Below, piece after piece: positions 1 through 58,562 of a stretch of DNA of 59,048 nucleotides. Both the position numbers and the translations under genes were made by a program. Location of the stretch: positions 1-59,048 of the IMG/VR virus record IMGVR_UViG_3300025030_000116; one strand, given 5' to 3'. The DNA comes from a virus. Taxonomy: Duplodnaviria; Caudoviricetes. A model generated the notes under the pieces. That model was given only the letters and a program-made list of their open reading frames with translations, made no database searches and had not been told where the DNA came from. Every line of letters begins with the position of its first letter. Within the stretch, counting starts at the first letter, position 1.

Positions 1-983
1 CCCCCCCTGGACCCCCCGACCCCCTGCGCGACCCCCGCCCCTCCCGTGAAATCAATTACCCCTCCCCTCTCAAGAACGTCTCCATTTTCCAATTGACCAA
101 AAGAGGCGGTAGCCACCCAGGGGGGACGACTGATTTGGTCCTATTGCCCCAGCCTCCTCTTAATCTCCTCCGACCAGGCGCTTTTAACCTCAACTTCACC
201 CTCCAATCGTGCTATTTCTTCGCCCACAATGAGCAATTCATGTGCTAAATCGGCAACATCCATCTCGTCCATCAGTCCAAACGTGCTTTGCTCTTCCATG
301 TTTATCTCCCAGTTTTATCCCACATGCCAAAGCGACAGGTGGGCGGCAGATTGGAGGGTAGTCCTGAAGTGCGTCAGAATATGTCGCAAGTCGTCAAGCG
401 ATCCAAGGAGCTGTTTTTAGCCTTCATATGCCCATCAGCGTCAATGCCACCTGGGACGAGAAGCGCAGATAGCAATCCAACGATGTAGACATCGCATTTC
501 AACAGAGTTGAGGGTGATGCCCATATCCTTGCCTGCCTTGCTCCGAGATCGTGCCTTTAAGCGGCATTTAAAGATTAGATGGCTTTTGCCGTCCCACACC
601 ATCCCCCTCGGGGGGTAAGGGGGGTTGTTTTTATTCTTTTATCTTCTTATGGGTTTGGTTCTGGGTAGCTTTGCGGATAGGTTAGCGTTAGCTATCCCAG
701 TAGGTAACCCAGTAGGTTCCGTTAAATTGACATGAGAACTCCATGTTAACAACTGGTTACGCCTGCTTACCCTGCGGATCACCCCAAAAACACCCCAATT
801 TACCCCCTTCGTCACATCGGATGATCGGTGCATGTTCGTAACCCAGAGCTAACCGACAGCTAACCCAGTTGGTTCTTTACCCAAAGATGCCCCCGGTACC
901 CTTCCCATGACCCCCTTCCCGAAAAATTTTCTTACCCCCGTTTTTCCCTCCAACAATTATTTTGACTGCATTCAACTTTGTTG

Positions 984-1012
984 TTGCAATCATCCAACTT
1001 TGTTGGTAGAAA
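984..1012 (+). promoter_or_regulatory. Putative sigma70 promoter with two CAACTTTGTTG operator-like sites (973-983, 995-1005)
   Basis: TTGCAA-17 bp-TAGAAA, with one palindromic site inside the spacer. Confidence 0.5.
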
Positions 1013-1124
1013 GGTTCCACACGAATCGACACCGTGTTGGTGGGGCCGGGTGAGTTGAATTTTCAGGCAAGGGTGATGGGGCTGTCCCTGATCCGCTTGC
1101 CCGGCATTTTAAGGAAGATGAAGC

Positions 1125-1235
1125 ATGAACGTCTGCAAGAAGTGTCACCCGCTGAAGCGGTTTTTCTGCATCATCCCTTGCCCTGCCGTTAACACCGAGC
1201 CGGATAAGGTTAAAAAGGAGTGGGCAACGACATGA
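1125..1235 (+). CDS. Small Cys-rich hypothetical protein (36 aa)
   Basis: AAGGAAG upstream; MNVCKKCHPLKRFFCIIPCP...; ATGA overlap with thyX. Confidence 0.5.
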   Translation: MNVCKKCHPLKRFFCIIPCPAVNTEPDKVKKEWATT

Positions 1236-1900
1236 AGCTGGTAAAGCCCGGATTCACAATTGACATGGACGGCTTGACCCCGAGCCAGATCCTCACCAAG
1301 CTTGAGCGCATTGGCCGGCTCAGTCATCAGTCAGAGGACAAAATGACCGAGGGCTCCGCCGAGAAGTTCATAAGCAAGTGGGCGATTCAGCACGGGCATG
1401 AAAGCATCCTCCGCCATCACAGCATTACGGTGCGGATCGTCTGCAATCGGGCTGTCTCCCATCAGCTTGTGCGTCACGGCCTGGCTCACTTTCTACAGGA
1501 GTCCCAGCGGTACTGCTGCTACAAGGGGCATGTCACCTTCGTCGTCCCCCAGTGGGCAAACATCGAGTCCGGGCAGTTCACCCGAGAGCAGGACATCAAA
1601 CTGATCCCCCCCTCCAATGGAGCGCGGGTGTGGGTCCGGTCGATGTTCAATGCCGAGGAGTCTTACCACGATCTGCTGGCCTGCGGGCGCCCGGCGGAAG
1701 AGGCGCGGGGAGTTTTGCCAAACGATGCCAAGACCGAGCTTGACCTGACGGCGAACTTGGAGGAGTGGCGCCACATTTTCAAAGCCCGGACGTCCAAACA
1801 CACTGACCCGGCTGCCCGCGAGATCATGGCCCCCATGCTGGACCAGTTCACATATCTGCTGCCGGCCATATTCAGCGACATCATTCCTTTCCGGGGTTAA
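1232..1900 (+). CDS. thyX: Flavin-dependent thymidylate synthase
   Basis: GHESILRH, SHQLVRH...FLQESQRY, ARGVLPN and NLEEWRHIFKAR motifs. Confidence 0.95.
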   Translation: MKLVKPGFTIDMDGLTPSQILTKLERIGRLSHQSEDKMTEGSAEKFISKWAIQHGHESILRHHSITVRIVCNRAVSHQLVRHGLAHFLQESQRYCCYKGHVTFVVPQWANIESGQFTREQDIKLIPPSNGARVWVRSMFNAEESYHDLLACGRPAEEARGVLPNDAKTELDLTANLEEWRHIFKARTSKHTDPAAREIMAPMLDQFTYLLPAIFSDIIPFRG

Positions 1901-2120
1901 CCGGGTCCCCGCTCTGCTTCGGCATCGGGCTTGCGGAGTGCATTGTGCCGGCCATTCCGGCAGGCGCTCCAGTCCAGAGACTCACTGGGTTATCAACCGA
2001 GGACGAACCCGTGACCTACTGGTGCAGCGGGCAGGAAGCTAGGTCAACCCTTACAATTTATCAATGTCCACGCTGCCCAGGCTAACACGGTGGGTCCAAC
2101 TTTTTAGAGGCAAGAGCCCA

Positions 2121-2498
2121 ATGGAAGCAGAGAAAAAACAAAACCCTTGCTTGGGACAAAAATACAGCACTGCGGTCTTCGCTCCGACCCGTGGCGAGGT
2201 GAAATATCTGGCTCTGAAGATGGTTTCAGTGATTAGAAACAAACGCTTTGAGACTGTTGCTGAAGCTTACAAGCGTAGGTTCCTGTCAACTCTTGAGCAT
2301 ATCGGTCATACACTCGATCCGACGAGCCCGCCATGCACGAATTGCCCGGCTATCACAGTTTATTTTTGTGGGAAATACGCACTTGAGTGTAGGGATTTCC
2401 TCAGATACAGCAACGGTGGGCGTGCTTACGATCCGAATAAAAGGCGAAAGCGTGTCCCGAAAGTTAACACCACATTTGATTCAACGGAGGAATTGTAA
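2121..2498 (+). CDS. Hypothetical protein with Cys cluster (CTNC...C...C)
   Basis: ORF coupled to the next gene; start chosen after GAGG. Confidence 0.55.
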   Translation: MEAEKKQNPCLGQKYSTAVFAPTRGEVKYLALKMVSVIRNKRFETVAEAYKRRFLSTLEHIGHTLDPTSPPCTNCPAITVYFCGKYALECRDFLRYSNGGRAYDPNKRRKRVPKVNTTFDSTEEL

Positions 2499-2764: not shown

Positions 2765-3186
2765 CGACAGTGGCGTGGGACGGCAAGTTGTTAGCTGGAG
2801 ACAGGCTGTGCTGCTTTGGTGGCACTCCGGTTGTCACAACAAAGGTCTTCGCCCTGAATGGGGTTCTGATCGGGACCGCTGGCCTGAAGGTCGATGGAAT
2901 CCTGTTCCGCGAGTGGGTCGAGAAAGGCAGACCCGCAGACAAAAAGCCTGTAGTTGGCGACAACTTTACCGGCTTATTGGTAGAGGCATCCGGGGAGCTG
3001 ATTTACTATGACGGCCCGAAGTTGGTGCCAGTTCCGATGCCCGCCGGGCAGAGATGGTCCTTGGGAAGTGGCTGCGATTTTGCGCTAGGCGCTATGGCCG
3101 CCGGGGCGAGTGCGATACAGGCGGTAGAGATAGCCTGCGTGCTTGACGTTAACACGGGTCTGGGAGTGGACTATGTGTCACTCTAG
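2761..3186 (+). CDS. Ntn-hydrolase fold (proteasome beta/HslV-like) phage protein
   Basis: N-terminal MTTVAWDGKLLAGD (catalytic Thr position) and SLGSG...ALGAM...AVEIA. Confidence 0.75.
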   Translation: MTTVAWDGKLLAGDRLCCFGGTPVVTTKVFALNGVLIGTAGLKVDGILFREWVEKGRPADKKPVVGDNFTGLLVEASGELIYYDGPKLVPVPMPAGQRWSLGSGCDFALGAMAAGASAIQAVEIACVLDVNTGLGVDYVSL

Positions 3187-3908: not shown

Positions 3909-4326
3909 TCTGAAGCTGTCTCTTCCTCTCACTGTGACACTTCCGCGCAAGACTAAGGCGGACAAGGTATTCATCCTGAACCTCAACAACTACCGTAACA
4001 CGCATCACATGACGCTGAACCAGGCCAAGGTAAAGTACAAAGAGCTGATATATGAGTTGATGCTGACGAGATCAGGAAAGTATGTAGCACCTATCTTGCC
4101 TCCGCCTCCGTATCTGTTCACCTACACCGTCTTCCCTGGCAGCATGAGGACGTTCGATGTTAACAATGTGTGCAGCATCATCGACAAGTTCGCAGCCGAC
4201 GCATTGCAGGAACTAGGAATAATCAAGAACGACAACTTCAAATTCATCCCCGAGAGTGTCTTTAAGTTCGGGAGCGTGGATAAAGACAATCCGAGATGTG
4301 AGTTGGTTGTAACTCCGCTCGCCTAA
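3898..4326 (+). CDS. RusA-like Holliday junction resolvase
   Basis: FDVNN...DKF..DAL..LGII.ND and C-terminal DNPRCEL pattern. Confidence 0.75.
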   Translation: MSGSLKLSLPLTVTLPRKTKADKVFILNLNNYRNTHHMTLNQAKVKYKELIYELMLTRSGKYVAPILPPPPYLFTYTVFPGSMRTFDVNNVCSIIDKFAADALQELGIIKNDNFKFIPESVFKFGSVDKDNPRCELVVTPLA

Positions 4327-4732: not shown

Positions 4733-5326
4733 ATGGCTCCAAAGAAAGAAAAATCGAACGTGTTAACTGGGCTGGATCTCTTGCAGGCCAAGACCCCTTC
4801 CGGCCAAAAGAAAACCCCGCCGCTGATCCCGGTTCAAGAGGCTCTAGTAATCCAGGGAGTGCTTGCCGGGAAGAAGCCAGGCGAGGCCGTGGCTGACGCT
4901 GGGTACGGCTTCAACAAGAAGAACGCCGAGGCATTCGGCAAGAACCTTGTGGCGAAGCACACGGATGTTAACGGCGCCCTGATAGCAAGCCTTGAGAGTG
5001 TCGGGGTCAATCTGGACTTCCTCACCGGGAAGATTAAGGAAGGCATGGGTGCCAGCAAGCCGCTCATGGTTGGAAAGACCAAAAGCAAAGACGGCACGGA
5101 GGAGATGGAATACGCGAATACCCCCGACTATGCAACTCGCCACAAGTACGTTGAGACGGTACTTGACATCCTACCTGGCGCCCGAGCTGCCAAGAAGATT
5201 GAGGTGACGCAGACGACATTTGAACAGAAGGCGGTCCTGGTTGCCGATATGCGCGAGAACCCGAAGGACGTGATGCTGATGATGGAAAGGATGCTTGAGA
5301 TGAAGAGGACCAAAACCATTGAGTGA
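4733..5326 (+). CDS. Terminase small subunit (putative)
   Basis: Overlaps the start of terL; A..DAGY HTH-like segment and PDYATRHKY motif. Confidence 0.65.
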   Translation: MAPKKEKSNVLTGLDLLQAKTPSGQKKTPPLIPVQEALVIQGVLAGKKPGEAVADAGYGFNKKNAEAFGKNLVAKHTDVNGALIASLESVGVNLDFLTGKIKEGMGASKPLMVGKTKSKDGTEEMEYANTPDYATRHKYVETVLDILPGARAAKKIEVTQTTFEQKAVLVADMRENPKDVMLMMERMLEMKRTKTIE

Positions 5327-7073
5327 ACTCCTCGCCAAGATAGAAGCGATGACCGAGGAGGAGCTGCTTGACCACATCTCCCATCTGAGGCTCACCGTTG
5401 ATTTCCCCTTCTTCGCGTCCAGGCTGCTCAAAGTGCAGACGATGAAGGGCAAGATTGTGCCGCTAGAGCTGAACTATCCGCAGCAGCTCCTTCATACGAT
5501 CATCGAAGACCACATAAGGCCGAAAAGACTCGTCCGCATCGTTGACCTCAAATCTCGACGCATGGGACATTCAACATATTTCTCCGGGCTCTTCTACCAG
5601 AAGGCTAGCCGCATCCACAACCGCTATGCCGTTCAGATTACGCATGAGCCGGAAGCGACCGACACCCTTTTCAAGATGGTCAAGAGGTTCTTCAGTTTCT
5701 CCCCTACCAGCGAGCGCCCGGAAACGCTCTACAACAACACGAAGCTGTTGGAGTTCAACAACAAGGACGGCAGGGGGCTCAACTCCGGCTTCCGAGTTGC
5801 GACCGCCGGCAAGGAGGACTTTGGTTCAGGTCAGACGATCCACTACGCCCACCTTTCCGAGACGGCCAAGTGGGACCAGGGGACCACCAAGAGCCTGTTA
5901 ACGTCACTCCTACAGACCGTCCCGGACGAAGACGACACAATGGTTGTCTTTGAGTCAACCGCCAAGGGTATCGGCGGGGAGTTCTATGACCGCTTCTGGG
6001 GCGCTCGCTTCCGCGTCTGGATCAAGCGTCTGGACGCTGACGGCAAGCCGGTCATTGAGGACACGATCAACGCGACCGCCGACCTGGACAACATCTACAC
6101 GTCCCTGTTCTTTCCCTGGTTTGTCTTCCCCGACTACGTGATAACCCCGCCATACGACTTCGTGTTAACGCCGAAAGAGGCCGGGATCAAAGCGCAGTAC
6201 GGGCTTTCGGATGCTCAAATTTACTGGCGCCGCCGGACCATCGCCAACAAGTGTGACGCCAACGAAGACATCTTCAACCAGGAGTACCCGGCCACACCCG
6301 AACATGCCTTCCTTGGATCTGGCCGGCCATGCTTCGACAACGCCAAGCTGCTCTTGCAGAAGGACGCCGCCCCTCCTCCGATAGCACGTTACGAGTGCCT
6401 GACTTCAACGGGCAAGTGGCTCATCAAGAACGATGGCCGGCTGTCAGTATGGGAGGAGCCCCGAGTCGGAGACGCCTACATCATATCCGCAGACGTTGCG
6501 GAAGGTTTGGAGAAAGGCGACTTCTCAACTGCCGATGTCATCAACCATCGTACAGGGGACCAGGTGGCGCAGTGGCACGGGCACATCGACCCTGACGAGT
6601 TCGCATCAATCCTGAGTTCTCTCGGAATCCGGTACAACGTGGCCTTGCTCGCGCCCGAGCGGAACAACCACGGCCTCATGGTAGTCAACAAGCTGATGTA
6701 TACCCACAACTACCCGCGCATCCATTGCGAGATGGTTCCCGACCCTCCTGGCAAGCCACGGAAGAGGTTTGGGTGGGTCACTGATAAGAAGACCCGGCCT
6801 TTTATCATAGACAACATGATAGCCGAGGTGCGTGAGGGTTCGCATGGTATCAGGTGCGCGGCGACGTTCGAGGAGATGATGGCCTTCAAGATCCAGAACA
6901 ACGGCAGAATGGAGGCAGATTCAGGACGTTTCGATGACCGGGTTATCTCTATCTGTATAGCAAAGCACCTCCGCCAAGTTCTTCCCGTACCGCGTCAGAT
7001 TCTACGGAATAAACGCCCATCTGGAGCGACAGGCGGAACCAAGAGCAAGCCTAACGCTAAGGGGTGGACGTGA
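5319..7073 (+). CDS. terL: Terminase large subunit
   Basis: LKSRRMGHST (Walker A), YAHLSE (Walker B), VFESTAKG, ISADVAEG, ERNNHG and DDRVIS nuclease motifs. Confidence 0.95.
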   Translation: MSELLAKIEAMTEEELLDHISHLRLTVDFPFFASRLLKVQTMKGKIVPLELNYPQQLLHTIIEDHIRPKRLVRIVDLKSRRMGHSTYFSGLFYQKASRIHNRYAVQITHEPEATDTLFKMVKRFFSFSPTSERPETLYNNTKLLEFNNKDGRGLNSGFRVATAGKEDFGSGQTIHYAHLSETAKWDQGTTKSLLTSLLQTVPDEDDTMVVFESTAKGIGGEFYDRFWGARFRVWIKRLDADGKPVIEDTINATADLDNIYTSLFFPWFVFPDYVITPPYDFVLTPKEAGIKAQYGLSDAQIYWRRRTIANKCDANEDIFNQEYPATPEHAFLGSGRPCFDNAKLLLQKDAAPPPIARYECLTSTGKWLIKNDGRLSVWEEPRVGDAYIISADVAEGLEKGDFSTADVINHRTGDQVAQWHGHIDPDEFASILSSLGIRYNVALLAPERNNHGLMVVNKLMYTHNYPRIHCEMVPDPPGKPRKRFGWVTDKKTRPFIIDNMIAEVREGSHGIRCAATFEEMMAFKIQNNGRMEADSGRFDDRVISICIAKHLRQVLPVPRQILRNKRPSGATGGTKSKPNAKGWT

Positions 7074-48525: not shown

Positions 48526-48548
48526 CGCTATGAAATAGCTCCAGACGC

Positions 48549-48591: not shown

Positions 48592-48597
48592 GCCTGC

Positions 48598-50180: not shown

Positions 50181-50181
50181 G

Positions 50182-51161: not shown

Positions 51162-51162
51162 G

Positions 51163-51534
51163 TTAACGCTCCCCTTTTTGGACTTCCTGGGCAATGAGGT
51201 ATCCGGTCCAGAGCAGCATAAGCAGGCTCCAAAACATCCACCCCGTGCGGGCCATCAATAACTGGTCCCGTAGGTTGACAAGCTGTAATGCGAAAATACC
51301 GTACAACGGACCCACCCACGTTGCTTTGACCTTATTCCACGCGATAACGACTCGCACCGGACCAGCTATCAAGTGCAGCAGTTTGAGTCTGGGAAATTCT
51401 GCCTGCGTGTGGACATGCGCGGAAAGCAGATAGGTAGCTTTGAAGCCGTGGTCATCCTTGATCCACCATGCCGGATCTTTCCAGTTTGCTACGTTGGCGG
51501 ATATTGCGTGATTCTTCGTCGTGAGCAACTTCAT
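51163..51534 (-). CDS. Membrane hypothetical protein
   Basis: AGGA-GTTAAC-ATG start; C-terminal hydrophobic segments. Confidence 0.6.
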   Translation of the reverse strand: MKLLTTKNHAISANVANWKDPAWWIKDDHGFKATYLLSAHVHTQAEFPRLKLLHLIAGPVRVVIAWNKVKATWVGPLYGIFALQLVNLRDQLLMARTGWMFWSLLMLLWTGYLIAQEVQKGER

Positions 51535-51561
51535 GTTAACTCCTCCTCTTAAGATAAAATT

Positions 51562-52355: not shown

Positions 52356-53345
52356 TTAGGCTATCAGCAGGGACGGCATGTATCCGGCCTGGTCCCTGAC
52401 CCAAGGGGTGTACTGTGCGAAATCGCAGGACTTGTAAAACCGACCGTTGACCCACCGCGCAAAATGCTTCAGCCTCATGTCGCTGTTCTGATTGTAGATC
52501 ATGACGTAAGGCGAGATATTCATCTCCACCAGGCGCCGGACCCGATACATATCCTCCTCAAAAGTCGTATCGAATCCGACAAGGGTGAAGCAGAGATGCT
52601 TCCACGCCTTTACATGCTTCAAGAGTGACCCGATCCCCTCCATCACCTTTTGCTCGAACGGCATAAGATCCCATGCGTAATGCAGTGACCGCAGATGCTT
52701 GACTTCTGACAGTGCCTTGGCAATCTCAGGGGTGACAAACCGCACGTCGATCCCCTGGGTAATGTCCAGGGTCAGGTTCCGTTCTTTGCACTCGCGCAGC
52801 TTCTCCAGGCAATCAGGATCGGAAGTCAGATTGTTGTCTAAAAGGATCAAGACATTTGACCGCGGATTCAGCAGATCCCCGATGGAACCGACCGAATGAA
52901 GGGCGCCCTCCTTCTTCGGCACAGCACAGAAGGCGCAGGATCTGACGCATCCCCTCGTTGTGAAGCCGATACCCGCGTCTAGGAGCGTTTGGCATTTCTC
53001 CTGTTTTGATGTCGCCTTCATGATCCCCTTCAGCCTCGGAAGGATGTCTTTCATCTGGTAAAGGTCGAAATCCGGCTGGCAGCTCTCCACGTTAACAGGG
53101 AGGGTTTTCGTCAAGTCCCAGCCAGTTCCCCCGAACTCGACCTGCGGGAAGATACCTGCCAGTCTCTCGGCTTTCGCCCTGTTCTTGGAAAAGATGACGC
53201 TGCAAAACACCTTGTCTACGTCGCTGGGTTTGAAGTCGTTCAAGAGGACCGTTGCGCCCTGCTCCTTGTAGTAGGTGGAAAGCTTCATGATGGCGAGATT
53301 CGGTATCCGCCCATCAAAGTCGATCAGTCCTATTCGCATTTTCAT
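52356..53345 (-). CDS. Radical SAM protein
   Basis: TRGCVRSCAFC (CxxxCxxC); N-terminal IGLID.D...PNLA.MK.S; LLDNN. Confidence 0.88.
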   Translation of the reverse strand: MKMRIGLIDFDGRIPNLAIMKLSTYYKEQGATVLLNDFKPSDVDKVFCSVIFSKNRAKAERLAGIFPQVEFGGTGWDLTKTLPVNVESCQPDFDLYQMKDILPRLKGIMKATSKQEKCQTLLDAGIGFTTRGCVRSCAFCAVPKKEGALHSVGSIGDLLNPRSNVLILLDNNLTSDPDCLEKLRECKERNLTLDITQGIDVRFVTPEIAKALSEVKHLRSLHYAWDLMPFEQKVMEGIGSLLKHVKAWKHLCFTLVGFDTTFEEDMYRVRRLVEMNISPYVMIYNQNSDMRLKHFARWVNGRFYKSCDFAQYTPWVRDQAGYMPSLLIA

Positions 53346-53409
53346 TCCCTCCGGTTTGATGGTTCAAGTCACACCCCCAAGCGTTAACCTGGGGGCGATC
53401 CTTCAAGCA

Positions 53410-53967
53410 TCAAGCCTTTGCGGACGCAATGAGCGCGTTGAGTTCTGCCGGTATGATGGCGGGCAAGGTGTTGATGAGTTGCCCCATGCCTTCGGTAAAC
53501 TCGGCACTCTCCGGCCAAACCTCGTTTAGCTTCTTGACGGTGTTAACGGATGCCAGTAATGATGAAACCTTGTTTCTCAGCGCGTGCTTCTCTTTCTCGA
53601 TGGCCTGCTCTTTCAGTTGGGTAGCGTAAAAGGCGATGGTCTTAGCGTCATCATTCTCATAGTTGGCAGCGGTATGGCGGCTGTGGTTGTTGGAAACCCT
53701 GCGCTGGCTGGAAAAATTGACGTAAACATATCCGGTACTGGACGCCCCAAACTGAACCCGCAAGCCTGATGTATCCGGCAGGTATCCGGCAGGGAGCGCC
53801 TCCATTTTCTGTTTAAGCGGGCCAGAGTAAAGGCTGTCGTAAACCATGTCGCCAAGAGCTGTTTTCTCGGCAGCCACCTCTGCGTCCCTGGCGGCGAAGG
53901 CGGACGTGATAACGCGGTTCCTGATAAGAGTCCTTCTTTCTTCGGTCAGTCTGATTGGTGCGCTCAT
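53410..53967 (-). CDS. Nmad5-like (nucleotide modification-associated domain 5) protein
   Basis: RLT...R..I N-terminus and L.SV.TVKKL.EVWPE C-terminus. Confidence 0.65.
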   Translation of the reverse strand: MSAPIRLTEERRTLIRNRVITSAFAARDAEVAAEKTALGDMVYDSLYSGPLKQKMEALPAGYLPDTSGLRVQFGASSTGYVYVNFSSQRRVSNNHSRHTAANYENDDAKTIAFYATQLKEQAIEKEKHALRNKVSSLLASVNTVKKLNEVWPESAEFTEGMGQLINTLPAIIPAELNALIASAKA

Positions 53968-54461
53968 GCGGTGAATCTCCTTTTTGTGGTAGTGGGCGCC
54001 AGATCTCTCCAGCGCCCCGTTAAGGTTAGAACAGACAAAGTTGAGCCATTACAGCTTTCACCCTGGATACGGGTGCTTTCGATTGCGTTTTAGGCGGTGC
54101 GTCCAGGCGGTGCGCGGGGTAAATTCTGATTTTGTCGTCTTCAGGTGAATACGATGCCGAATGTGGTGTTAACATGGTCCATCCTCCTGTCTGTTACGGT
54201 AGGCGCCTTGGGTTCAGCCTTGGCGCTGTCTGGTTCCGTTCGTGCTCCTCGATAATGTTCTTGATGCTCTGCGGCGTGTAGTGCTCGATGATCTCCGTCA
54301 ACGTCATTCTGCTTCGCGCCATACAATCACCGCCCCGATTAGAATTGAGATACCTACCACCGCCCAACCTGTTAACATTGGTTTCCTCCTGTCCTGTCTG
54401 GTTGACTGCTCAAGCGAAGGGCCAAGCTTGTTAACTTGGCCCTTCTATCAGCGGTCAACGA

Positions 54462-54884: not shown

Positions 54885-54996
54885 TGCACTTCCTCCTTGT
54901 TGTTGGTCCTGCGAGTTAACAGCATAATTTCAATCAAGACGTAGATCACGCCAATGATGAAAAGCCGTGCCTGTATCCAGTTGGTTGCAGCGTCCA

Positions 54997-55284: not shown

Positions 55285-55475
55285 GGTGTCCCCCTGGCTA
55301 GATGGCGAAAATGACCTTATGGCCCTTGTTCCTGATGCTCTGCAATTCCTTCGCGGTGACGGTGTAGCGCCTGTCTTTGACGATGATCCGATACATGGTT
55401 AATCCTCCTGTCTGTTGGTTGATTGAAGCGTGAAGCGATACCGCCAAGCTGTTAACTTGGCGGCTCTATCAGGGT

Positions 55476-56306
55476 TCAATATGGGTCTGTCGGGTTGTCG
55501 ATAGTGGTCAATCTGGCTGCCTGCTCCTCAACCCACCGGGCGCTCCCCTCTGGTGTGCTGAAGACTGCCAGACCGCTTGCAGCATAGGCGGCGGGGATGT
55601 AAAGCCCGTATTCCTTTTGCTCCTCCTGGCTCATGTTGTCGGGTGCTCCGTATCTCCCGCCCCGGTTGTTGTAGTTTCGTTCCAGGACGGCGAAGGTTAA
55701 GCGGCGTAACCATGCCGGATGTGCCAGGGCAAAAGAAATTGAGTCAATCGACAGCGGCGACATCCCAAAGCTAACAAGCATTTCCTGGCGTTTATATTCC
55801 CCAGCGTCCGCGCTCCATACCCCCACGGTTAACTCAACGATGTTTGTAGGGTCGCGTTGTAGCGTGTCGATCAAGGCAACAATGGCGGCGCCTCGGTTGT
55901 AAATCTGTTGGACCGGAATTGAGCCCGAATAGTCCGCGGCGACAGCGATTCTAACCACTCGCTTTGCAGTAACCTCTGTGGGGCGCATCCAGCATTCCGG
56001 TAAGCCTTCGACCACGGAGCCCACGTCGAAAAAATCACCCTCAACGTCCCATTGATACTCAAGATGTTTCTCTGTCTGCGCCTTCTCGATTTCCCTTAGC
56101 CGGTCGGAAACGCTTGACGCTGCCGCCGTCCATCCGTGGGTGATAAGTCGAACCATCTCGCCCCAGCTTTTGCAGCCGGTGTCGTTCTCCGTTTCATGCT
56201 GAGAGTTGCAATACCTCAAGTCCGCCGTGTCACCTATCCATTCCATTACGTCTGTGATGCTGTCAAACTCCTGTCTGATAAAACCAAGTGCTTTTGTCTC
56301 TTTCAT
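55476..56306 (-). CDS. vWA-like partner of the AAA ATPase (putative)
   Basis: DV.G...DVG....G.PECW, RG.AI.ALID.L, HP...RRL.F; adjacent to the ATPase gene. Confidence 0.6.
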   Translation of the reverse strand: MKETKALGFIRQEFDSITDVMEWIGDTADLRYCNSQHETENDTGCKSWGEMVRLITHGWTAAASSVSDRLREIEKAQTEKHLEYQWDVEGDFFDVGSVVEGLPECWMRPTEVTAKRVVRIAVAADYSGSIPVQQIYNRGAAIVALIDTLQRDPTNIVELTVGVWSADAGEYKRQEMLVSFGMSPLSIDSISFALAHPAWLRRLTFAVLERNYNNRGGRYGAPDNMSQEEQKEYGLYIPAAYAASGLAVFSTPEGSARWVEEQAARLTTIDNPTDPY

Positions 56307-56387
56307 AGTCTCCCCCGGTAAGATTGAAAGTTGAAACGACCGGCACAAAGTATAATGTTAACTTTGTGCCGCCTATCATCGTTCTAT

Positions 56388-57668
56388 CTATGCGGCCCAC
56401 TTCATTGCTGTTCCTGTTGCGTTCTGTATCTTGGTTTTAATGTCCGCGCTAATGCCTTTCCAAATAATCATGTTTTCAACTTCATCCTGTGAGAAACCAG
56501 CTTTTAACAGCTTTGCACCCTTGTAACTTGCGCGGGGACTGATAACCATGCGCTCTTTCAAGTCAAAAGCTGCTTTACGGTACATCTGCACCCGTCTGCA
56601 CCACTGGTCGTTTCCAGCCAGTAGCCGCTCTAGCTCTTCGTCATAGTCAAAATCGACAACTGCAAAGCGGTCCAGGCTGGCGGCGTCTAGCTGGTTGCGG
56701 CCTACATACTGCCGGTCGGCGCCTCTCCCGTAGGTGTTCATGGCACAGACGCAAACGAAGTCGGCGTTAACTTCAATCATCCCGTCCGGGAAGGCTGCGA
56801 GGCTGTTTGAAAGGATCGCGTTTAAGATGGTCAGCACGTTGGCGTTGCCTGCGTCCGCTTCGTCTAGGAGGAAAACCCCGCCATACTCCACGGCGTCCCT
56901 TAGCTGCGTCCGGTTGTATTTGCCGTGGGCGTCGATGAAGCCTAAGAGGTCGGTCTTTGTCGTCTGCTGTCCGACACTGATGCAGTAAAACTTCAACCCC
57001 ATTGCCTCGGCTGCCTGATGCGTTGCGTGGGTCTTTCCAGATCCAGCCGGACCGACTAGCATGTAATGCTCACGGGCTGCGATGATCTTGCAAAGCGTGG
57101 GGAACATCTTGTGTTGCACTCCTGCCTTGATAACTTCCTTGCCAGGGATGACAACCTCAAAGCGGCGGGTATTGCTGTCGATAACTTCCTTGACGATCTT
57201 TCTAACCCGTTCCTCGTCAAACACAGCCACGACCGGCGTTGCTCCCGCTGACCCCGTATCTATCCATGTCCCGTTGTTGATGTAGTCGGTAAGCTGTGCG
57301 CGGGTCCATTTGGTTCTAAGGTCCGTTGTGGGTAGCCCTGCCGCTTTCGCCTTGTCCGCTGCCGCCTTCCGCAACTCTTGCACGCTGGCCTGGCTCACCT
57401 CGTCGCTGCTCATGTCCTCGCTCCCCTCGATTGCTTCCGTCTCTTCATTGAATGTTGTGATAACCAGATGGGCCTCTCTCGCTCCGTCTGCCAGTCCAGC
57501 GTTGTAGGTGTAAAACTTCTCCGCTTTGTCCTTACCAACAACGCTTGGCTTCCAGTGCTCCCCGCTCCAGTGCGTATCTGTCAGATACCGCTTTTCCCTG
57601 TCGTTCTCCGCCTCGGCTACCCAATAAGGGAGCCCCTTCTTCTTGCTGGTAAATTTCACGATCTTCAT
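56388..57668 (-). CDS. MoxR/CbbQ-type AAA+ ATPase
   Basis: GPAGSGKT, FLLDEAD, NT.G.G....YVGRNQLDAA.LDRF, ISPR. Confidence 0.9.
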   Translation of the reverse strand: MKIVKFTSKKKGLPYWVAEAENDREKRYLTDTHWSGEHWKPSVVGKDKAEKFYTYNAGLADGAREAHLVITTFNEETEAIEGSEDMSSDEVSQASVQELRKAAADKAKAAGLPTTDLRTKWTRAQLTDYINNGTWIDTGSAGATPVVAVFDEERVRKIVKEVIDSNTRRFEVVIPGKEVIKAGVQHKMFPTLCKIIAAREHYMLVGPAGSGKTHATHQAAEAMGLKFYCISVGQQTTKTDLLGFIDAHGKYNRTQLRDAVEYGGVFLLDEADAGNANVLTILNAILSNSLAAFPDGMIEVNADFVCVCAMNTYGRGADRQYVGRNQLDAASLDRFAVVDFDYDEELERLLAGNDQWCRRVQMYRKAAFDLKERMVISPRASYKGAKLLKAGFSQDEVENMIIWKGISADIKTKIQNATGTAMKWAA

Positions 57669-58067
57669 GGCTGCATCCTCCTACCAAGTTGGTTGACATT
57701 GAAAGGCTCGATAAACCCGCCGGACCTTTCAGCCTGGCGGGTTGCTCCATCCTTTCAAGCTGTCATTGCCTCGCGCATCATGGCGCAGTATTCGTGAGTT
57801 AACAGCAAGCCCTCTTCCATAAAATCCTCAACTTCAGCGATTGTGACCTTTTCCATGTCTAGTTCCCCCTGTCTGCTTGTGGTTGGCTGCAAGTCGATAA
57901 GCGCCGAAGCTTTTACACCTCGGCGCTATCATCTCGATTCCTACCTGTCTGTCTGTTCTCACCCTGTCACGGTGCCCTATCGCTTGTCCCCTTCGCCCTG
58001 GTAACTCCGCTCACCTCATTGACGGTATGCCGTCCTCGTTGGGCCTGCTGGCTGTGGGGGTCAACGC

Positions 58068-58086
58068 TATTCAGTTGTCAAAGATC
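58068..58086 (-). promoter_or_regulatory. rrn-type boxA antitermination-like sequence
   Basis: GATCTTTGACAACTGAATA on the - strand, about 30 nt after the predicted transcription start. Confidence 0.6.
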
Positions 58087-58121
58087 CGGTTCCTGCGGCG
58101 CTGTGCCAACCACGCAAAACA

Positions 58122-58150
58122 ACCTTAAACGAGTTAACGCAACTTTGCAA
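58122..58150 (-). promoter_or_regulatory. Promoter of the leftward right-arm operon
   Basis: TTGCAA-17-TAAGGT; GTTAAC in the spacer; operator-like variant at 58162. Confidence 0.6.
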
Positions 58151-58562
58151 GAAGTTTTGTTCAACAAAGTAGGATTTTTATTCGATGAAATCTAAGACTT
58201 CGATAAGCTGCTAAATTGTTTGCACTCTCTACCTAAAATATATACTGAAGAGGAGTATATACTATACATAAAAGACCTGTCTCTCCGAGTCCTTTATACC
58301 TGCCTTGTGGTTGATGGAAGGGAAAAGAGATAGAAAGGGTTCGCGGTCGGCGTGCCTCGGGCCTTTTTCGCATGGCGTGAAATCGTGATCGGTCAGGGCG
58401 TCGGCTGCCCGGTCAATCCAAGTTAACTTGCTGCCCGATGCCTGCCAGAATGCCCGAATTGCACCCCTTTTGCCTGGCCTTGTCCCCTTTTCCGTCCCCC
58501 TTCGCCTTGCTCCCCCTCTCAAGTACCTGTTATTCATCAAGTTAACTCGGCACAGCAAAGGT

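What the first reader, a model, noticed from the sequence alone, without database searches (positions are those of the whole stretch)
745..58546. Genome-wide hyper-enrichment of the palindrome GTTAAC (81 copies), placed at neutral positions
Seen: I counted 81 GTTAAC by eye, e.g. 745, 1188, 1896, 2463, 3148, 4159 ... 57798, 58133, 58422, 58541, about one per 720 bp in nearly all modules. Base composition alone (GC roughly 55-57%, estimated) predicts about 11. The sites sit where they cost little. (1) Between RBS and ATG at 39258, 39935, 50181, 50956, 51162 and 51535. (2) In hairpin loops at 7854, 49013, 53383, 54430, 55451 and 56357. (3) In coding DNA as GTT-AAC (Val-Asn) or nnG-TTA-ACn, using the TTA codon that otherwise looks rare here (5897, 6164, 8778, 20822, 44339). 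Established: phages usually avoid 6-bp palindromes (this is the HpaI site), so this is the opposite of restriction avoidance. Inference: the motif is positively selected at DNA level as a distributed mark. It could be a modification or self-recognition site, a binding lattice for a phage or host DNA-protecting or translocating protein, or programmed nick sites. No recognisable DNA methyltransferase is encoded, so the reader/writer is either a host factor or an unrecognised phage protein.
Basis: partly seen in the sequence, partly recalled or inferred. Interest (0 to 1): 0.92.

Follow-up and report, generated by a model that had tools for sequence, protein, structure and literature searches.

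The report
Phage clade saturated with GTTAAC sites
A whole group of related bacterial viruses keeps the six-letter palindrome GTTAAC about every 600-700 bases, evenly spaced and tucked into harmless positions, while removing almost every other six-letter palindrome, which points to an unknown protein that must find this site all along the viral DNA.

Summary
Observation confirmed and extended. GTTAAC occurs 81 times (7.5 expected from dinucleotide shuffles, maximum 15 of 100). It is the commonest of all hexamers. It survives a synonymous-codon shuffle (49 in coding DNA vs 15.6±3.4). Sites are more evenly spaced than chance. They lie at low-cost positions and carry symmetric flank preferences. 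The other 63 six-base palindromes are depleted 3.5-fold.

The trait belongs to a clade, not to one genome. All 9 contigs whose large terminase is at least 62.5% identical to the window's carry more sites than expected, 8 of them significantly. This includes genomes with 81 and 100 sites. No printed relative at 58% or below is enriched.

GTTAAC-rich genomes share only head genes and a few others. No DNA methyltransferase was found. This excludes the replication, recombination, lysogeny and nucleotide-modification genes as readers.

None of 401 Nitrospirota genomes is GTTAAC-rich. That is the only phylum where I found prophage relatives.

My best reading (0.33) is a phage-self coverage signal tied to the terminase. 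The main rival is a host-wide word copied by the phage, like uptake sequences in phage HP1.

The parts
745..750 (.). GTTAAC site, outside my gene calls, preceded by CAT
1188..1193 (.). GTTAAC site, outside my gene calls
1896..1901 (.). GTTAAC site; its TAA is the stop of the ThyX ORF that ends at 1900
2463..2468 (.). GTTAAC site, outside my gene calls (inside listed ORF 2064-2498)
3148..3153 (.). GTTAAC site, Val-Asn in ORF 2761-3186
4159..4164 (.). GTTAAC site, Val-Asn in RusA-like ORF 3898-4326
4762..4767 (.). GTTAAC site, outside my gene calls (inside listed ORF 4733-5326)
4967..4972 (.). GTTAAC site, outside my gene calls (inside listed ORF 4733-5326)
5897..5902 (.). GTTAAC site, x-Leu(TTA)-Thr in large terminase
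6164..6169 (.). GTTAAC site, x-Leu(TTA)-Thr in large terminase
7169..7174 (.). GTTAAC site, non-coding; conserved in L007
7854..7859 (.). GTTAAC site at the loop of a strong hairpin
8233..8238 (.). GTTAAC site, inside long portal ORF 7828-10056; GTTAAT in L007
8778..8783 (.). GTTAAC site, x-Leu-Thr in portal; conserved in L007
9046..9051 (.). GTTAAC site, Val-Asn in portal; GTCAAC in L007
9265..9270 (.). GTTAAC site, Val-Asn in portal; conserved in L007
10015..10020 (.). GTTAAC site, Val-Asn in portal
10628..10633 (.). GTTAAC site, Val-Asn in ORF 10361-11299; conserved in L007
12275..12280 (.). GTTAAC site just after the capsid gene; conserved in L007
13346..13351 (.). GTTAAC site, Val-Asn in ORF 13226-13852
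13636..13641 (.). GTTAAC site, x-Leu-Thr in ORF 13226-13852
14799..14804 (.). GTTAAC site, Val-Asn in ORF 14577-16304
15207..15212 (.). GTTAAC site, Val-Asn in ORF 14577-16304
16080..16085 (.). GTTAAC site, Val-Asn in ORF 14577-16304
16254..16259 (.). GTTAAC site, Val-Asn in ORF 14577-16304
18456..18461 (.). GTTAAC site, Val-Asn in ORF 18411-18629
18887..18892 (.). GTTAAC site, x-Leu-Thr in 1263-aa ORF 18639-22430
20166..20171 (.). GTTAAC site, Val-Asn in ORF 18639-22430
20822..20827 (.). GTTAAC site, x-Leu-Thr in ORF 18639-22430
21270..21275 (.). GTTAAC site, Val-Asn in ORF 18639-22430
22562..22567 (.). GTTAAC site, outside my gene calls (inside listed ORF 22427-22795)
23087..23092 (.). GTTAAC site, Val-Asn in ORF 22859-23272
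23183..23188 (.). GTTAAC site, Val-Asn in ORF 22859-23272
23430..23435 (.). GTTAAC site, Val-Asn in ORF 23265-23840
24090..24095 (.). GTTAAC site, Val-Asn in ORF 23859-24296
24862..24867 (.). GTTAAC site, Val-Asn in ORF 24535-26262
25141..25146 (.). GTTAAC site, Val-Asn in ORF 24535-26262
26705..26710 (.). GTTAAC site, Val-Asn in 2280-aa ORF 26276-33118
27614..27619 (.). GTTAAC site, Val-Asn in ORF 26276-33118
28022..28027 (.). GTTAAC site, Val-Asn in ORF 26276-33118
28939..28944 (.). GTTAAC site, x-Leu-Thr in ORF 26276-33118
30415..30420 (.). GTTAAC site, x-Leu-Thr in ORF 26276-33118
31295..31300 (.). GTTAAC site, Val-Asn in ORF 26276-33118
32617..32622 (.). GTTAAC site, x-Leu-Thr in ORF 26276-33118
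33274..33279 (.). GTTAAC site, x-Leu-Thr in ORF 33197-33457
33942..33947 (.). GTTAAC site, x-Leu-Thr in ORF 33457-34035
34755..34760 (.). GTTAAC site, outside my gene calls (inside listed ORF 34728-35138)
35570..35575 (.). GTTAAC site, x-Leu-Thr in integrase (- strand)
36158..36163 (.). GTTAAC site, x-Leu-Thr in integrase (- strand)
37907..37912 (.). GTTAAC site, x-Leu-Thr in YqaJ-like exonuclease
39258..39263 (.). GTTAAC site between ribosome-binding site and ATG of ORF 39264-39662
39935..39940 (.). GTTAAC site between ribosome-binding site and ATG of the SSB gene
40703..40708 (.). GTTAAC site between ORFs, just upstream of ORF 40712-41131
41523..41528 (.). GTTAAC site, outside my gene calls
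42575..42580 (.). GTTAAC site, x-Leu-Thr in primase-helicase
42980..42985 (.). GTTAAC site, x-Leu-Thr in primase-helicase
44339..44344 (.). GTTAAC site, x-Leu-Thr in primase-helicase
44537..44542 (.). GTTAAC site, Val-Asn in ORF 44510-44764
44716..44721 (.). GTTAAC site, x-Leu-Thr in ORF 44510-44764; last site before the 4-kb gap
44722..48723 (.). the only long stretch without a site (4008-bp gap): small unannotated ORFs in cassettes with repeated junction sequences
48724..48729 (.). GTTAAC site, Val-Asn in ORF 48598-48936 (- strand)
49013..49018 (.). GTTAAC site in the loop of a 17-bp-stem hairpin where + and - strand genes converge
50181..50186 (.). GTTAAC site abutting the start codon of - strand ORF 49896-50180
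50956..50961 (.). GTTAAC site abutting the start codon of - strand ORF 50182-50955
51162..51167 (.). GTTAAC site abutting the start codon of - strand ORF 50952-51161
51535..51540 (.). GTTAAC site abutting the start codon of - strand ORF 51163-51534
51937..51942 (.). GTTAAC site preceded by CAT, inside listed AlpA-like ORF 51562-52206
53091..53096 (.). GTTAAC site, Val-Asn in radical SAM-like ORF (- strand)
53383..53388 (.). GTTAAC site in a weak hairpin (z -1.2)
53542..53547 (.). GTTAAC site, Val-Asn in Nmad5 ORF (- strand)
54168..54173 (.). GTTAAC site, outside my gene calls, followed by ATG
54371..54376 (.). GTTAAC site, outside my gene calls
54430..54435 (.). GTTAAC site at the loop of a strong hairpin
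54915..54920 (.). GTTAAC site, outside my gene calls
55451..55456 (.). GTTAAC site at the loop of a strong hairpin
55828..55833 (.). GTTAAC site, x-Leu-Thr in DUF7192 ORF (- strand)
56357..56362 (.). GTTAAC site at the loop of a strong hairpin
56766..56771 (.). GTTAAC site, Val-Asn in CobS-like AAA+ ORF (- strand)
57798..57803 (.). GTTAAC site, outside my gene calls
58133..58138 (.). GTTAAC site, outside my gene calls
58422..58427 (.). GTTAAC site, outside my gene calls
58541..58546 (.). GTTAAC site, outside my gene calls
5319..7073 (+). large terminase gene, the gene whose lineage the trait follows best
36860..37230 (.). divergent promoter region between the integrase operon and the early genes; it holds no GTTAAC

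Best explanation
SHOWN. GTTAAC is the invariant core of a degenerate palindromic recognition site of about 12-14 bp, roughly C-S-R-(not G)-GTTAAC-(not C)-Y-S-G. A whole clade of 55-60 kb tailed phages keeps it at one site per 0.55-0.73 kb. The window and G411 carry integrase genes, and G411 assembles as a circle. The sites are spaced more evenly than chance and sit at the cheapest positions: spacers before start codons, hairpin loops, gene ends and variable amino-acid positions. They turn over between relatives while their density is kept. The same genomes purge the other six-base palindromes. The trait is inherited with the phage lineage and fits the large-terminase tree best. It does not depend on the replication, recombination, lysogeny or nucleotide-metabolism genes, and no phage DNA methyltransferase was found.

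INFERRED. The site is a coverage signal: every stretch of phage DNA must have one within about 1-2 kb, and a symmetric (dimeric) protein reads it. The site is roughly 5 to 50 times denser in these phages than in any genome of the one phylum where prophage relatives were found. It could therefore mark phage DNA as self.

MOST LIKELY READER, a weak commitment. I propose the phage's own DNA-packaging machinery. The terminase would start or end headful packaging only at or near such sites, so a site has to be within reach wherever a head fills.
For: Excess and selection:
- 81 vs 7.5 expected; 49 vs 15.6 +/- 3.4 in coding DNA under synonymous shuffling.
- 14 of 15 coding sites in genes shared with G406 encode other amino acids there.
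- 5 of 9 sites are conserved in L007 against a 25% background, with changed flanks (binomial P about 0.05). Three of the seven non-shared sites read GTCAAC in the other genome.

Coverage:
- Spacing CV is 0.79 in the window (P 0.014-0.019), 0.68 in G410 (P 0.0003) and 0.74 in G411 (P 0.0007).
- Gaps under 150 bp number 3 against 14.8 expected.
- Largest gaps are 4008, 2319 and 2824 bp.

Protein-type site: symmetric flank preferences of 0.25, 0.23, 0.13 and 0.07 bits, against at most 0.08 in 300 random sets. They hold in non-coding, frame-0 and frame-2 sites, with no excess flank complementarity. They recur in G411, G410 and L111.

Clade trait: all 9 loci with terminase identity of 62.5% or more carry more sites than expected, 8 with P of 2.8e-5 or less. 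None of the 31 printed loci at 58% or less is enriched.

Terminase link:
- Holding the GTTAAC-rich genomes as one clade is not rejected on the terminase tree (p-AU 0.28). It is borderline on portal (0.049) and rejected on the capsid protein (6e-5).
- G412, in the sister terminase clade, has its own word GCTAACAC (20 vs 0.7). That word shares the half-site GTGTTA with the preferred extended site here.

Exclusions: primase-helicase, RecT, exonuclease, integrase, the radical SAM-like gene, Nmad5, ThyX, HU and the small ribbon-helix-helix candidate are each missing from at least one GTTAAC-rich genome. No methyltransferase was found.

Phage versus host: 0 of 401 Nitrospirota genomes exceed about 0.3 sites per kb, against 1.37-1.68 here. 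Terminase relatives occur in 7 of those 401 and in 13 of 381 genomes of one class.

Headful type: G411 ends in a 127-bp overlap, that is, a circular assembly.
Against: - No terminase is known (my recall) to need a specific sequence for headful cuts.
- The terminase of the GTTAAC-rich clade has no insertion of its own. Only 3 residues discriminate it, all in the N-terminal third.
- The small-terminase candidate (ORF 4733-5326) is not detectable in GTTAAC-rich G410.
- The terminase tree itself needs 1-2 changes of the trait, against 2-3 on portal and 3 on capsid. The link is a matter of degree, from quick trees of 15-17 rows.
- The groups were named after I had seen the enrichment data but before the trees.
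- The 4-kb gap in the window (6.8% of the genome) is large for a headful tolerance.
- The real host is unknown. If it lies outside the genomes I could scan, the host may be as GTTAAC-rich as the phage.
- Phage HP1 shows that a temperate phage can copy a host-wide word with even spacing.
Confidence: 0.33

Rival explanations
1. Host-wide word copied by the phage. The hosts of this clade carry GTTAAC at high density throughout their chromosomes. It would be an uptake-sequence-like, HIP1-like or methylation-coupled signal read by a host protein. Temperate phages that live in these chromosomes acquire and keep the same word.
For: - The anatomy matches uptake sequences: about 1 per kb, even spacing, low-cost codons, poorly conserved amino-acid positions, and absence from recently acquired genes (abstract of PMC2817400).
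- Direct precedent computed here: temperate Haemophilus phage HP1 has 17 copies of the host uptake core against 0.17 expected, with spacing CV 0.51 (P 0.003).
- In a prophage relative, the 24-nt hairpin element that fills the prophage is host-wide: 182 copies of its 12-mer core in G001.
- The window and G411 carry integrases.
- No phage gene is shared only by GTTAAC-rich genomes.
- Orphan methyltransferases that recognise GTWWAC exist in Burkholderia (passages of PMC11380664).
Against: - 0 of 401 Nitrospirota genomes and 0 of 5 other genomes with distant relatives are GTTAAC-rich.
- 13 contigs that share a 54-74% identical protein with the window, but are otherwise different, are not enriched.
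- The GTTAAC-rich phages span 48-61% G+C, so the host group would be broad and should be easy to hit.
- A phage of a HIP1-rich cyanobacterium does not copy HIP1 (1 vs 0.78).
- I found no paper reporting a GTTAAC-rich bacterial lineage (searches, listings only).
Confidence: 0.25
2. A host protein that acts on phage DNA only. Candidates are a nucleoid-associated silencer, a recombination or repair enzyme, or part of a defence system that the phage exploits or blocks. The host chromosome itself is not enriched.
For: - No conserved phage reader exists outside the head genes.
- The flanks fit a symmetric dimer.
- The words differ between relatives that also differ in which palindromes they avoid, which suggests different hosts.
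Against: - No candidate host protein is known.
- The sites do not lie at promoter-like spacing (4 vs 3.2).
- An exact six-base core is unlike shape-reading silencers (inference).
- I see no clear reason why a phage would accumulate targets for a host protein.
Confidence: 0.15
3. Another phage-encoded reader among the few genes present in all GTTAAC-rich genomes. These are the CobS-like AAA+ ATPase, DUF7192, the small phrog_1273 protein and RusA. The reader would bind or mark the sites, for example as a roadblock or self-mark against host nucleases.
For: - These genes are present in the window, G411 and G410.
- Their operon has the highest site density, with GTTAAC in the loops of the hairpins between its genes.
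Against: - The same genes occur at equal identity in relatives without GTTAAC: G406 and G412 have CobS-like at 52% and 39%, and DUF7192 at 31% and 36%.
- phrog_1273 is a common phage family with a weak match in G406 too.
- None has a known DNA-binding role (Pfam and PHROG names only).
Confidence: 0.1
4. Immunity-repressor lattice. The sites would be stoperator-like binding sites of the prophage repressor that stop transcription throughout the prophage.
For: Mycobacteriophage repressors bind numerous sites distributed across the genome (listing abstract of PMC9283540). The window's phage is temperate.
Against: - There is no GTTAAC between 36158 and 37907, the stretch that holds the divergent promoter region next to the integrase operon.
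- The candidate regulators are not conserved in G410: the 154-aa ORF, the HTH ORF and the RHH ORF.
- The sites are palindromic, so they have no orientation relative to transcription.
Confidence: 0.03
5. Neutral by-product. A biased mutation or repair process creates GTTAAC without any function.
For: GTCAAC and GTTGAC, one transition away, are about 2-fold over expectation (29 and 27 vs 13.9). Site gain and loss between the window and L007 runs through them.
Against: - Even spacing in three genomes.
- Sites conserved above background with changed flanks.
- Amino-acid changes and use of the rarest Leu codon.
- The other single-base neighbours are not depleted.
Confidence: 0.05
6. Priming sites for the phage primase-helicase. 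GTT on both strands would serve as a template signal.
For: The window encodes its own Toprim-helicase. The spacing resembles Okazaki-fragment length (inference).
Against: - G410 has 81 sites but no homologue.
- G412 has a 57% homologue but no enrichment.
- Two Pseudomonas phages with 43% homologues have 0 and 1 site.
Confidence: 0.01

Closest known systems
DNA uptake sequences (USS/DUS) of Pasteurellaceae and Neisseriaceae, and their copies in temperate phage HP1
   Same: A short exact core with weaker flanks, about 0.5-1.5 per kb and spaced more evenly than chance. It sits in favoured reading frames and at poorly conserved residues, is absent from newly acquired genes, and often occurs in terminator hairpins (abstract of PMC2817400; HP1 computed).
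   Different: Those words are 9-12 bases long, not palindromic and host-wide. Here the word is a 6-base palindrome. No enriched host genome was found. The trait follows a phage gene lineage. Uptake bias is untestable here.
HIP1 (GCGATCGC) of cyanobacteria
   Same: A hyper-abundant palindrome kept by selection, with conserved sites inside and between genes and an unknown function (abstract and passages of PMC5861425).
   Different: HIP1 is an octamer in host chromosomes. The window has no CGATCG at all. One phage of a HIP1-rich host does not carry HIP1. Here the carrier is a phage clade.
Stoperators of cluster A mycobacteriophages
   Same: A phage-lineage-specific site present many times across a temperate phage genome (listing abstract of PMC9283540).
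   Different: Stoperators are asymmetric 13-mers (my recall). They number a few dozen per genome (my recall). They include the operator at the early promoter (my recall). They are bound by a conserved repressor. Here there is no site in the switch region and no conserved repressor.
Chi sites
   Same: A short word over-represented as a self signal that protects DNA from a processive host enzyme (my recall). The relative G406 has a 5-6-mer (ACGCA/TACGCA) with Chi-like density and random spacing.
   Different: Known Chi sequences are asymmetric, depend on orientation and are host-wide (my recall). GTTAAC is a palindrome.
pac/cos packaging signals
   Same: A sequence read by the terminase. The trait follows the terminase lineage.
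   Different: Known signals are single loci near the terminase genes, and headful cuts are not sequence-specific (my recall). Here there are 81-100 sites spread over the whole genome.
HpaI / HincII restriction-modification sites and the orphan GTWWAC methyltransferase M.BceJIV
   Same: The same hexamer is a known target of sequence-specific enzymes. M.BceJIV binds GTTAAC as a dimer (passages of PMC11380664).
   Different: Phages normally avoid such sites. Only GTTAAC is enriched: GTATAC occurs 3 times, and GTAAAC and GTTTAC 7 and 6 times. No methyltransferase gene was found in these phages.

Membership tests
HIP1-type highly iterated palindrome | the motif is GCGATCGC or a close variant | tested here: not met
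   CGATCG occurs 0 times in the window
HIP1-type highly iterated palindrome | hyper-abundance throughout the host chromosome | tested here: inconclusive
   0 of 401 Nitrospirota and 0 of 5 other genomes are GTTAAC-rich, but the host is unknown
HIP1-type highly iterated palindrome | palindrome kept by selection, with sites conserved between relatives | tested here: met
   5 of 9 sites conserved in L007 against a 25% background; the trait is present in 9 related contigs
DNA uptake sequence | density near 1 per kb with spacing more even than chance | tested here: met
   1.37 per kb with CV 0.79, and 0.68 and 0.74 in two relatives
DNA uptake sequence | placement at low-cost codons and poorly conserved residues; absence from newly acquired DNA | tested here: met
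   the site-free cassette region
DNA uptake sequence | same word at equal or higher density in a naturally competent host | tested here: inconclusive
   not found in the genomes searched; host unknown
DNA uptake sequence | preferential uptake of DNA that carries the word | not testable with these tools
   needs an experiment
Chi | asymmetric word with orientation bias | tested here: not met
   GTTAAC is its own reverse complement
Chi | recognition by host RecBCD or AddAB | not testable with these tools
   host unknown
Stoperator lattice | the same site forms the operator at the early lytic promoter | tested here: not met
   no GTTAAC between 36158 and 37907; the switch region is shown
Stoperator lattice | a repressor conserved among the phages that carry the site | tested here: not met
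   the 154-aa, HTH and RHH ORFs are absent from G410
Self-protected restriction site (phage methyltransferase) | a DNA methyltransferase gene in the phage | tested here: not met
   PF01555, PF02086, PF00145 and PF02384 are absent in six frames of the window. PF01555 and PF02086 are absent from G410 and G411. Other methyltransferase families were not searched.
pac/cos packaging signal | specificity follows the terminase | tested here: inconclusive
   one clade is not rejected on the terminase tree (p 0.28) but is rejected on the capsid tree (6e-5). The terminase tree still allows two changes.
pac/cos packaging signal | a single site or cluster near the terminase genes | tested here: not met
   81 sites over the whole window
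pac/cos packaging signal | virion DNA ends at the site | not testable with these tools
   the runs laid were contigs, not raw reads

The most novel reading that the evidence does not exclude
These phages use a six-base palindrome as a distributed self-signal for DNA packaging. The terminase starts or ends headful packaging only at GTTAAC-type sites. Sister terminase lineages have drifted to other words: GCTAACAC in G412 and TACGCA in G406. The genome therefore has to carry a site within reach everywhere, and host DNA, which is poor in the site, is largely kept out of heads. This would be a third mode of genome recognition by terminases beside single pac and cos sites.
Probability: 0.3. Interest if true: 0.9.

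Novelty: new variant of a known kind. Interest (0 to 1): 0.78.

Why it matters
Genome-wide iterated words are known from bacterial chromosomes (uptake sequences, Chi, HIP1), and phages are known for avoiding short palindromes. Here a phage clade does both at once. It purges 63 palindromes and multiplies one about seven-fold over the base-composition expectation, with regular spacing and at a cost in amino acids and codons.

Either way the clade offers a clean natural experiment. There are 81-100 sites per genome, relatives with other words, and relatives with none. The function of a hyper-abundant palindrome has stayed open for HIP1 for decades (PMC5861425). In a 59-kb genome it could be tested by rewriting sites synonymously.

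Tried and rejected
- Composition, codon usage or repeats as the cause: rejected.
- A longer hidden motif or repeat family: none. Only weak symmetric flanks were found.
- Promoter -35 role: a -10-like box follows 4 of 162 oriented sites against 3.2 expected.
- Hairpin requirement: the flanks are not complementary above chance.
- Primase sites, the radical SAM/Nmad5 modification cluster, HU, the ribbon-helix-helix ORF and the repressor lattice: rejected by gene content or by the site-free switch region.
- ORF 50182-50955 (257 aa) as an HpaI/HincII-like enzyme: no PDB sequence match at E up to 10, and the printed sequence looked coiled-coil-like to my eye.
- Terminase with an extra domain: none.

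Host search:
- megablast against phage records found nothing.
- The integrase, primase-helicase, 2280-aa protein, CobS-like protein and RecT have no close relatives in viral contigs.
- The metagenome scan with the integrase gave only 23% hits.
- The genome scan with the terminase gave at best 51%. That pattern-based tool also missed 62-69% relatives in viral contigs (compare), so it may have missed prophages of the GTTAAC-rich clade.
- 401 genomes of the phylum of G002 hold no terminase relative at E 1e-60 or better.
- An E. coli record gave only a W handle, so Pseudomonadota genomes could not be sampled.
- The protein atlas gave only viral ThyX clusters.

Sequencing runs:
- One study of groundwater metagenomes holds the window. 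No RNA holder is listed.
- The second sample holds the same phage at low depth without variants, so no microdiversity test was possible.

Four prophage regions of Nitrospirota with 41-48% terminase relatives show no hyper-abundant word. Such words are therefore not universal in the family.

Not available:
- Supplementary files of papers were not opened.
- All 40 scripts were used. The ratio of GTTAAC to its control across the 401 genomes was read by eye only.

Full report
**1. The observation**

The window is a whole IMG/VR virus record, classed as linear, with a CheckV completeness estimate of 73%.

The expectations are:
- 7.54 (sd 2.81, maximum 15) in 100 dinucleotide-preserving shuffles;
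- 11.1 from base composition;
- 8.9 under a second-order Markov model, giving z 24.

It is the most frequent of all hexamers: 81 copies, and the next has 63. A fourth-order Markov test says little, because 81 of the 110 GTTAA and 81 of the 103 TTAAC lie inside GTTAAC.

I made a rough gene call of 72 ORFs covering 83% of the window. In it, 49 sites are coding. A shuffle of synonymous codons within each gene gives 15.6 ± 3.4 (maximum 26 of 500). A shuffle of codon order gives 9.8 ± 3.1 (maximum 20 of 300).

**2. Placement**
- In coding DNA, 29 sites read GTT-AAC, 20 read nnG-TTA-ACn and none reads nGT-TAA-Cnn.
- 29 of 71 Val-Asn pairs are GTTAAC. GTT is 25% of Val codons and AAC 71% of Asn codons, so about 18% is expected. 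TTA is the second-rarest Leu codon (78 codons, 6.1%), and 20 of those lie in GTTAAC.
- 32 sites fall in the 17% of the window outside my gene calls. Some of these lie inside ORFs listed.
- Seven sites lie within 12 nt upstream of a called start (1.2 expected, P 2e-4). Thirteen lie within 30 nt of a stop (6.0 expected, P 0.007). Within genes the sites are spread uniformly.
The one at 53383 is weak.
- In genes shared with relative G406, 14 of 15 coding sites encode other amino acids in G406. The word has been written into variable protein positions.

**3. New properties of the sites**

(a) Spacing is more even than random.
- The coefficient of variation of the gaps is 0.79, against 0.98 for random placement (P 0.014).
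- The smallest gap is 59 bp (P 0.0008).
- Three gaps are under 150 bp, against 14.8 expected.
- Treating the window as a circle gives CV 0.78 (P 0.010).
- After removing the one 4-kb gap, chosen after seeing the data, CV is 0.65. The largest remaining gap is 2202 bp (P 0.016).

(b) The flanks show symmetric preferences.
- Position -1 is rarely G, -2 is a purine, -3 is C or G, and -4 is C.
- The relative entropies are 0.25, 0.23, 0.13 and 0.07 bits, against at most 0.08 in 300 random sets.
- The same preferences appear in non-coding, frame-0 and frame-2 sites.
- The two flanks are not complementary to each other above chance.

This pattern fits a symmetric protein. It does not fit a hairpin or codon context.

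(c) The other 63 six-base palindromes together occur 266 times against 944 expected. Forty-three of them have at most 3 copies although at least 10 are expected. Four-base palindromes are not generally depleted, and GATC occurs 303 times.

(d) Single-base neighbours of GTTAAC are not depleted. GTCAAC and GTTGAC are about 2-fold over expectation.

(e) The 4-kb gap (44722-48723) is made of small unannotated ORFs whose junctions carry repeated sequences. Those junctions are shared with other, more abundant contigs of the same sample. The bin 44-48 kb holds 9 of the otherwise avoided palindromes, the highest count among 4-kb bins. I read this stretch as recently imported DNA.

**4. The phage**

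Annotated genes:
- integrase, YqaJ-like exonuclease, RecT and SSB;
- a MazZ-like pyrophosphohydrolase domain and a deoxyribosyltransferase-like protein;
- a DUF1376 initiator and a Toprim-helicase;
- an HU-like protein and an AlpA-like regulator;
- a radical SAM-like protein, Nmad5, DUF7192 and a CobS-like AAA+ ATPase;
- ThyX and RusA;
- large terminase, an SU10-like portal and a capsid protein;
- a tRNA-Thr gene.

No DNA methyltransferase of PF01555, PF02086, PF00145 or PF02384 is found in six frames.

The region between the integrase operon and the early genes holds sequences that I read as two divergent sigma-70-like promoters. It holds no GTTAAC: none lies between 36158 and 37907.

**5. 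Relatives: the trait belongs to a clade**

The first scan with the window's terminase found only one enriched relative, L007. It is 86% identical in the terminase and 76% in DNA, and has 8 sites against 1.2 expected.
- Five of the window's nine sites in the shared stretch are conserved in L007. The background conservation of hexamers is 25% (binomial P about 0.05).
- The flanks of the conserved sites differ between the two genomes.
- At three of the seven sites found in only one of the two genomes, the other reads GTCAAC. The rest read GTTAAT, GCTAAC, ATTAAA or GTCAAG.

A protein search gave relatives that the pattern scan had missed. Scanning with one of them, P0005, returned seven further enriched contigs:

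| Contig | GTTAAC observed | Expected |
|---|---|---|
| L100 | 11 | 1.4 |
| L101 | 10 | 1.1 |
| L102 | 7 | 0.6 |
| L104 | 19 | 4.1 |
| L111 | 33 | 4.6 |
| G410 (54,935 bp) | 81 | 13.0 |
| G411 (59,697 bp) | 100 | 13.6 |

G411 ends in a 127-bp overlap, which means it assembled as a circle.

I compared 73 loci with terminase relatives and printed the 40 with the highest identity.
- All 9 loci with at least 62.5% identity to the window carry more sites than expected. Eight have P of 2.8e-5 or less. L005, only 4.2 kb long, has 2 sites against 0.9 (P 0.23).
- None of the 31 printed loci at 58% or less is enriched; the lowest P is 0.13.
- The 33 loci that were not printed are more distant. Their counts are, and none is strongly enriched.

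The enriched contigs span 48-61% G+C.

The other properties recur in the enriched relatives.

| Genome | Spacing CV (P) | Other 63 palindromes, observed/expected |
|---|---|---|
| window | 0.79 (0.019) | 266/945 |
| G410 | 0.68 (0.0003) | 335/846 |
| G411 | 0.74 (0.0007) | 223/922 |
| G406 (not enriched) | – | 648/978 |
| G413 (not enriched) | – | 900/1106 |

The flank preferences recur in G411, G410 and L111.

**6. What the enriched genomes share**

I compared the window's proteins with each genome by tblastn.
- Present in the window, G411 and G410: terminase, portal, a scaffold-like protein, capsid, RusA, the CobS-like ATPase, DUF7192 and a small phrog_1273 protein.
- Present at similar identity in non-enriched G406 and/or G412: terminase, portal, capsid, CobS-like, DUF7192 and RusA.
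- The phrog_1273 protein belongs to a common phage family and has a weak match in G406.
- Missing from at least one enriched genome: the primase-helicase, DUF1376, RecT, the exonuclease, the integrase, the 154-aa ORF next to the integrase, the HTH ORF, the ribbon-helix-helix candidate, HU, ThyX, the MazZ-like gene, the radical SAM-like gene and Nmad5.

G410 and G411 also lack PF01555 and PF02086 methyltransferases. The replication, recombination, lysogeny and nucleotide-modification modules are therefore excluded as readers or writers.

**7. Which gene does the trait follow?**

I built quick maximum-likelihood trees of 16 terminase rows, 17 portal rows and 15 capsid rows. Rows covering less than 60% of the query were dropped: L007 and L111 from the terminase tree, and several others from the portal and capsid trees.

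| Tree | Changes of the trait on the best tree (minimum forced by starred branches) | AU test, enriched genomes as one clade |
|---|---|---|
| terminase | 2 (1) | log-likelihood 1.3 lower, p 0.28 |
| portal | 3 (2) | log-likelihood 21.1 lower, p 0.049 |
| capsid | 3 (3) | log-likelihood 86.5 lower, p 6e-5 |

The trait fits the terminase tree best, but the difference is one of degree.

The terminase of the enriched clade has no insertion of its own. Only three residues discriminate it. The small-terminase candidate is not detectable in G410.

Sister lineages have other words.
- G406 has TACGCA 157 times against 33.6 expected, and its core ACGCA 404 times against 162. Both occur in both orientations and all frames with random spacing. 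In coding DNA TACGCA occurs 142 times against 35.6 ± 5.4 after synonymous shuffling.
- G412 has GCTAACAC 20 times against 0.7 expected. Its reverse complement shares GTGTTA with the preferred extended site GTGTTAAC of the window's clade.

**8. Host**

The window's DNA is held by runs labelled groundwater metagenome, all from one study.

Named relatives of the terminase (51-58% identical) come from Deferrisomatales, Nitrospiraceae, Nitrospira and Candidatus Manganitrophus. Another comes from a Candidatus Magnetomicrobium genome.

Terminase relatives, all at 51% identity or less over the full length, were found in:
- 7 of 401 Nitrospirota genomes;
- 13 of 381 genomes of one Nitrospirota class;
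- 0 of 401 genomes of the phylum of G002 at E 1e-60 or better.

None of the 401 Nitrospirota genomes is GTTAAC-rich. The densest have about 0.3 sites per kb (1039 in 3.3 Mb; 1091 in 3.7 Mb). Most have far fewer sites than the backwards control CAATTG, for example 89 against 1007 (read by eye, not corrected for composition). Five genomes that hold distant relatives are not enriched either.

No prophage of the enriched clade was found, so the host remains unknown.

**9. Calibration with known cases**
- The temperate Haemophilus phage HP1 carries 17 copies of its host's uptake core against 0.17 expected. Their spacing has CV 0.51 (P 0.003). A temperate phage can therefore copy a host-wide word, even spacing included.
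- A phage of the HIP1-rich Synechococcus PCC 7002 carries 1 HIP1 against 0.78 expected.
- In the Magnetomicrobium prophage region, the high-copy element is a 24-nt hairpin repeat. Its 12-mer core occurs 182 times across the host genome.
- Four other Nitrospirota prophage regions have no hyper-abundant word.

**10. Interpretation**

The data show a DNA-level word maintained by selection, evenly spaced and read symmetrically. It is a heritable trait of a phage clade and is independent of most phage modules. Two classes of reader remain.

(i) The packaging machinery. This is favoured because the trait fits the terminase tree best, by the drift of words between terminase lineages, by the elimination of other phage genes, and by the lack of enriched genomes in the only phylum with known relatives. 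It is weakened by the absence of any precedent, by the absence of any special terminase feature, and by the modest phylogenetic contrast.

(ii) A host protein. This comes with host-wide enrichment (favoured by the HP1 precedent and the uptake-sequence-like anatomy) or without it.

I give 0.33 to (i), 0.25 to the host-wide word, 0.15 to a host protein acting on phage DNA only, 0.10 to another conserved phage protein, and the rest to minor rivals.

**11. Novelty**

Full-text searches for GTTAAC with over-representation or phage terms found no report of such enrichment (listings only). Neither did a search on restriction-site avoidance and over-represented palindromes (plus one passage of PMC6286503). 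The closest known kinds are uptake sequences, HIP1, Chi and stoperators. This case differs from each in at least one tested defining feature.

Noticed in passing
G406 (loci L066-L068, whole 59,458-bp contig): This relative (terminase 58% identical) has almost no GTTAAC (1 copy) but its own hyper-abundant word. TACGCA occurs 157 times against 33.6 expected, and its core ACGCA 404 times against 162. Both occur in both orientations and all frames with random spacing (CV 1.07). In coding DNA TACGCA occurs 142 times against 35.6 +/- 5.4 after synonymous shuffling.
   Followed up: partly
G412 (loci L121-L122, 37,393 bp): This relative has the asymmetric word GCTAACAC 20 times against 0.7 expected. 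Its reverse complement shares the half-site GTGTTA with the preferred extended GTTAAC site of the window's clade.
   Followed up: partly
L085 (Rhizobium phage RHph_TM3_14A, MN988472.1, 1-50000): A cultured phage with a 41% identical capsid protein carries GGTAAC 90 times against 16.6 expected. By eye most copies lie in a small inverted repeat, TTACCT-N4-AGGTAA, of which I estimate about 45 copies. Many of them sit just upstream of start codons.
   Followed up: partly
L059 and genome G001 (Candidatus Magnetomicrobium MAG): The prophage region is packed with a 24-nt hairpin repeat, partly in tandem arrays with a 24-bp period. Its 12-mer core occurs 182 times across the host genome and the backwards control 0 times. 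It looks like a REP-like element shared by host and prophage.
   Followed up: partly
window 46150-48200: Small ORFs are arranged as cassettes with repeated junction sequences (for example 46341-46370, 47244-47273 and 47923-47952). Other contigs of the same sample at 5-14 times the phage's depth share these junctions but not what lies between them.
   Followed up: partly
window, whole length: There is a general purge of six-base palindromes: 43 of them have at most 3 copies although at least 10 are expected. GATC is not avoided (303 copies), yet TGATCA, CGATCG and GGATCC have 0 copies.
   Followed up: yes
401 Nitrospirota genomes: GTTAAC is usually several-fold rarer than its backwards control CAATTG, for example 89 vs 1007 and 78 vs 970. 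This may mean that HpaI-type restriction is common in the phylum, or it may only reflect dinucleotide bias. I did not correct for composition.
   Followed up: no
L088 (Synechococcus phage Yong-L1-251): This phage of a HIP1-rich host has no HIP1 excess (1 vs 0.78). It shows a mild GTTAAC excess (16 vs 5.1, z 4.8).
   Followed up: no
terminase relatives: Several terminase homologues are 940-990 aa long and carry intein or homing-endonuclease Pfam domains (PF14890, PF14528, PF05203).
   Followed up: no
window 58563-58979: The AHSA1/SRPBCC-like ORF at the right end holds five of the otherwise avoided palindromes within 58631-58952 and no GTTAAC. It looks like a recent acquisition.
   Followed up: no
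window 7714-7789: A tRNA-Thr (TGT) gene lies between the terminase and portal genes. It is followed by a strong hairpin with GTTAAC at its loop (7854).
   Followed up: no
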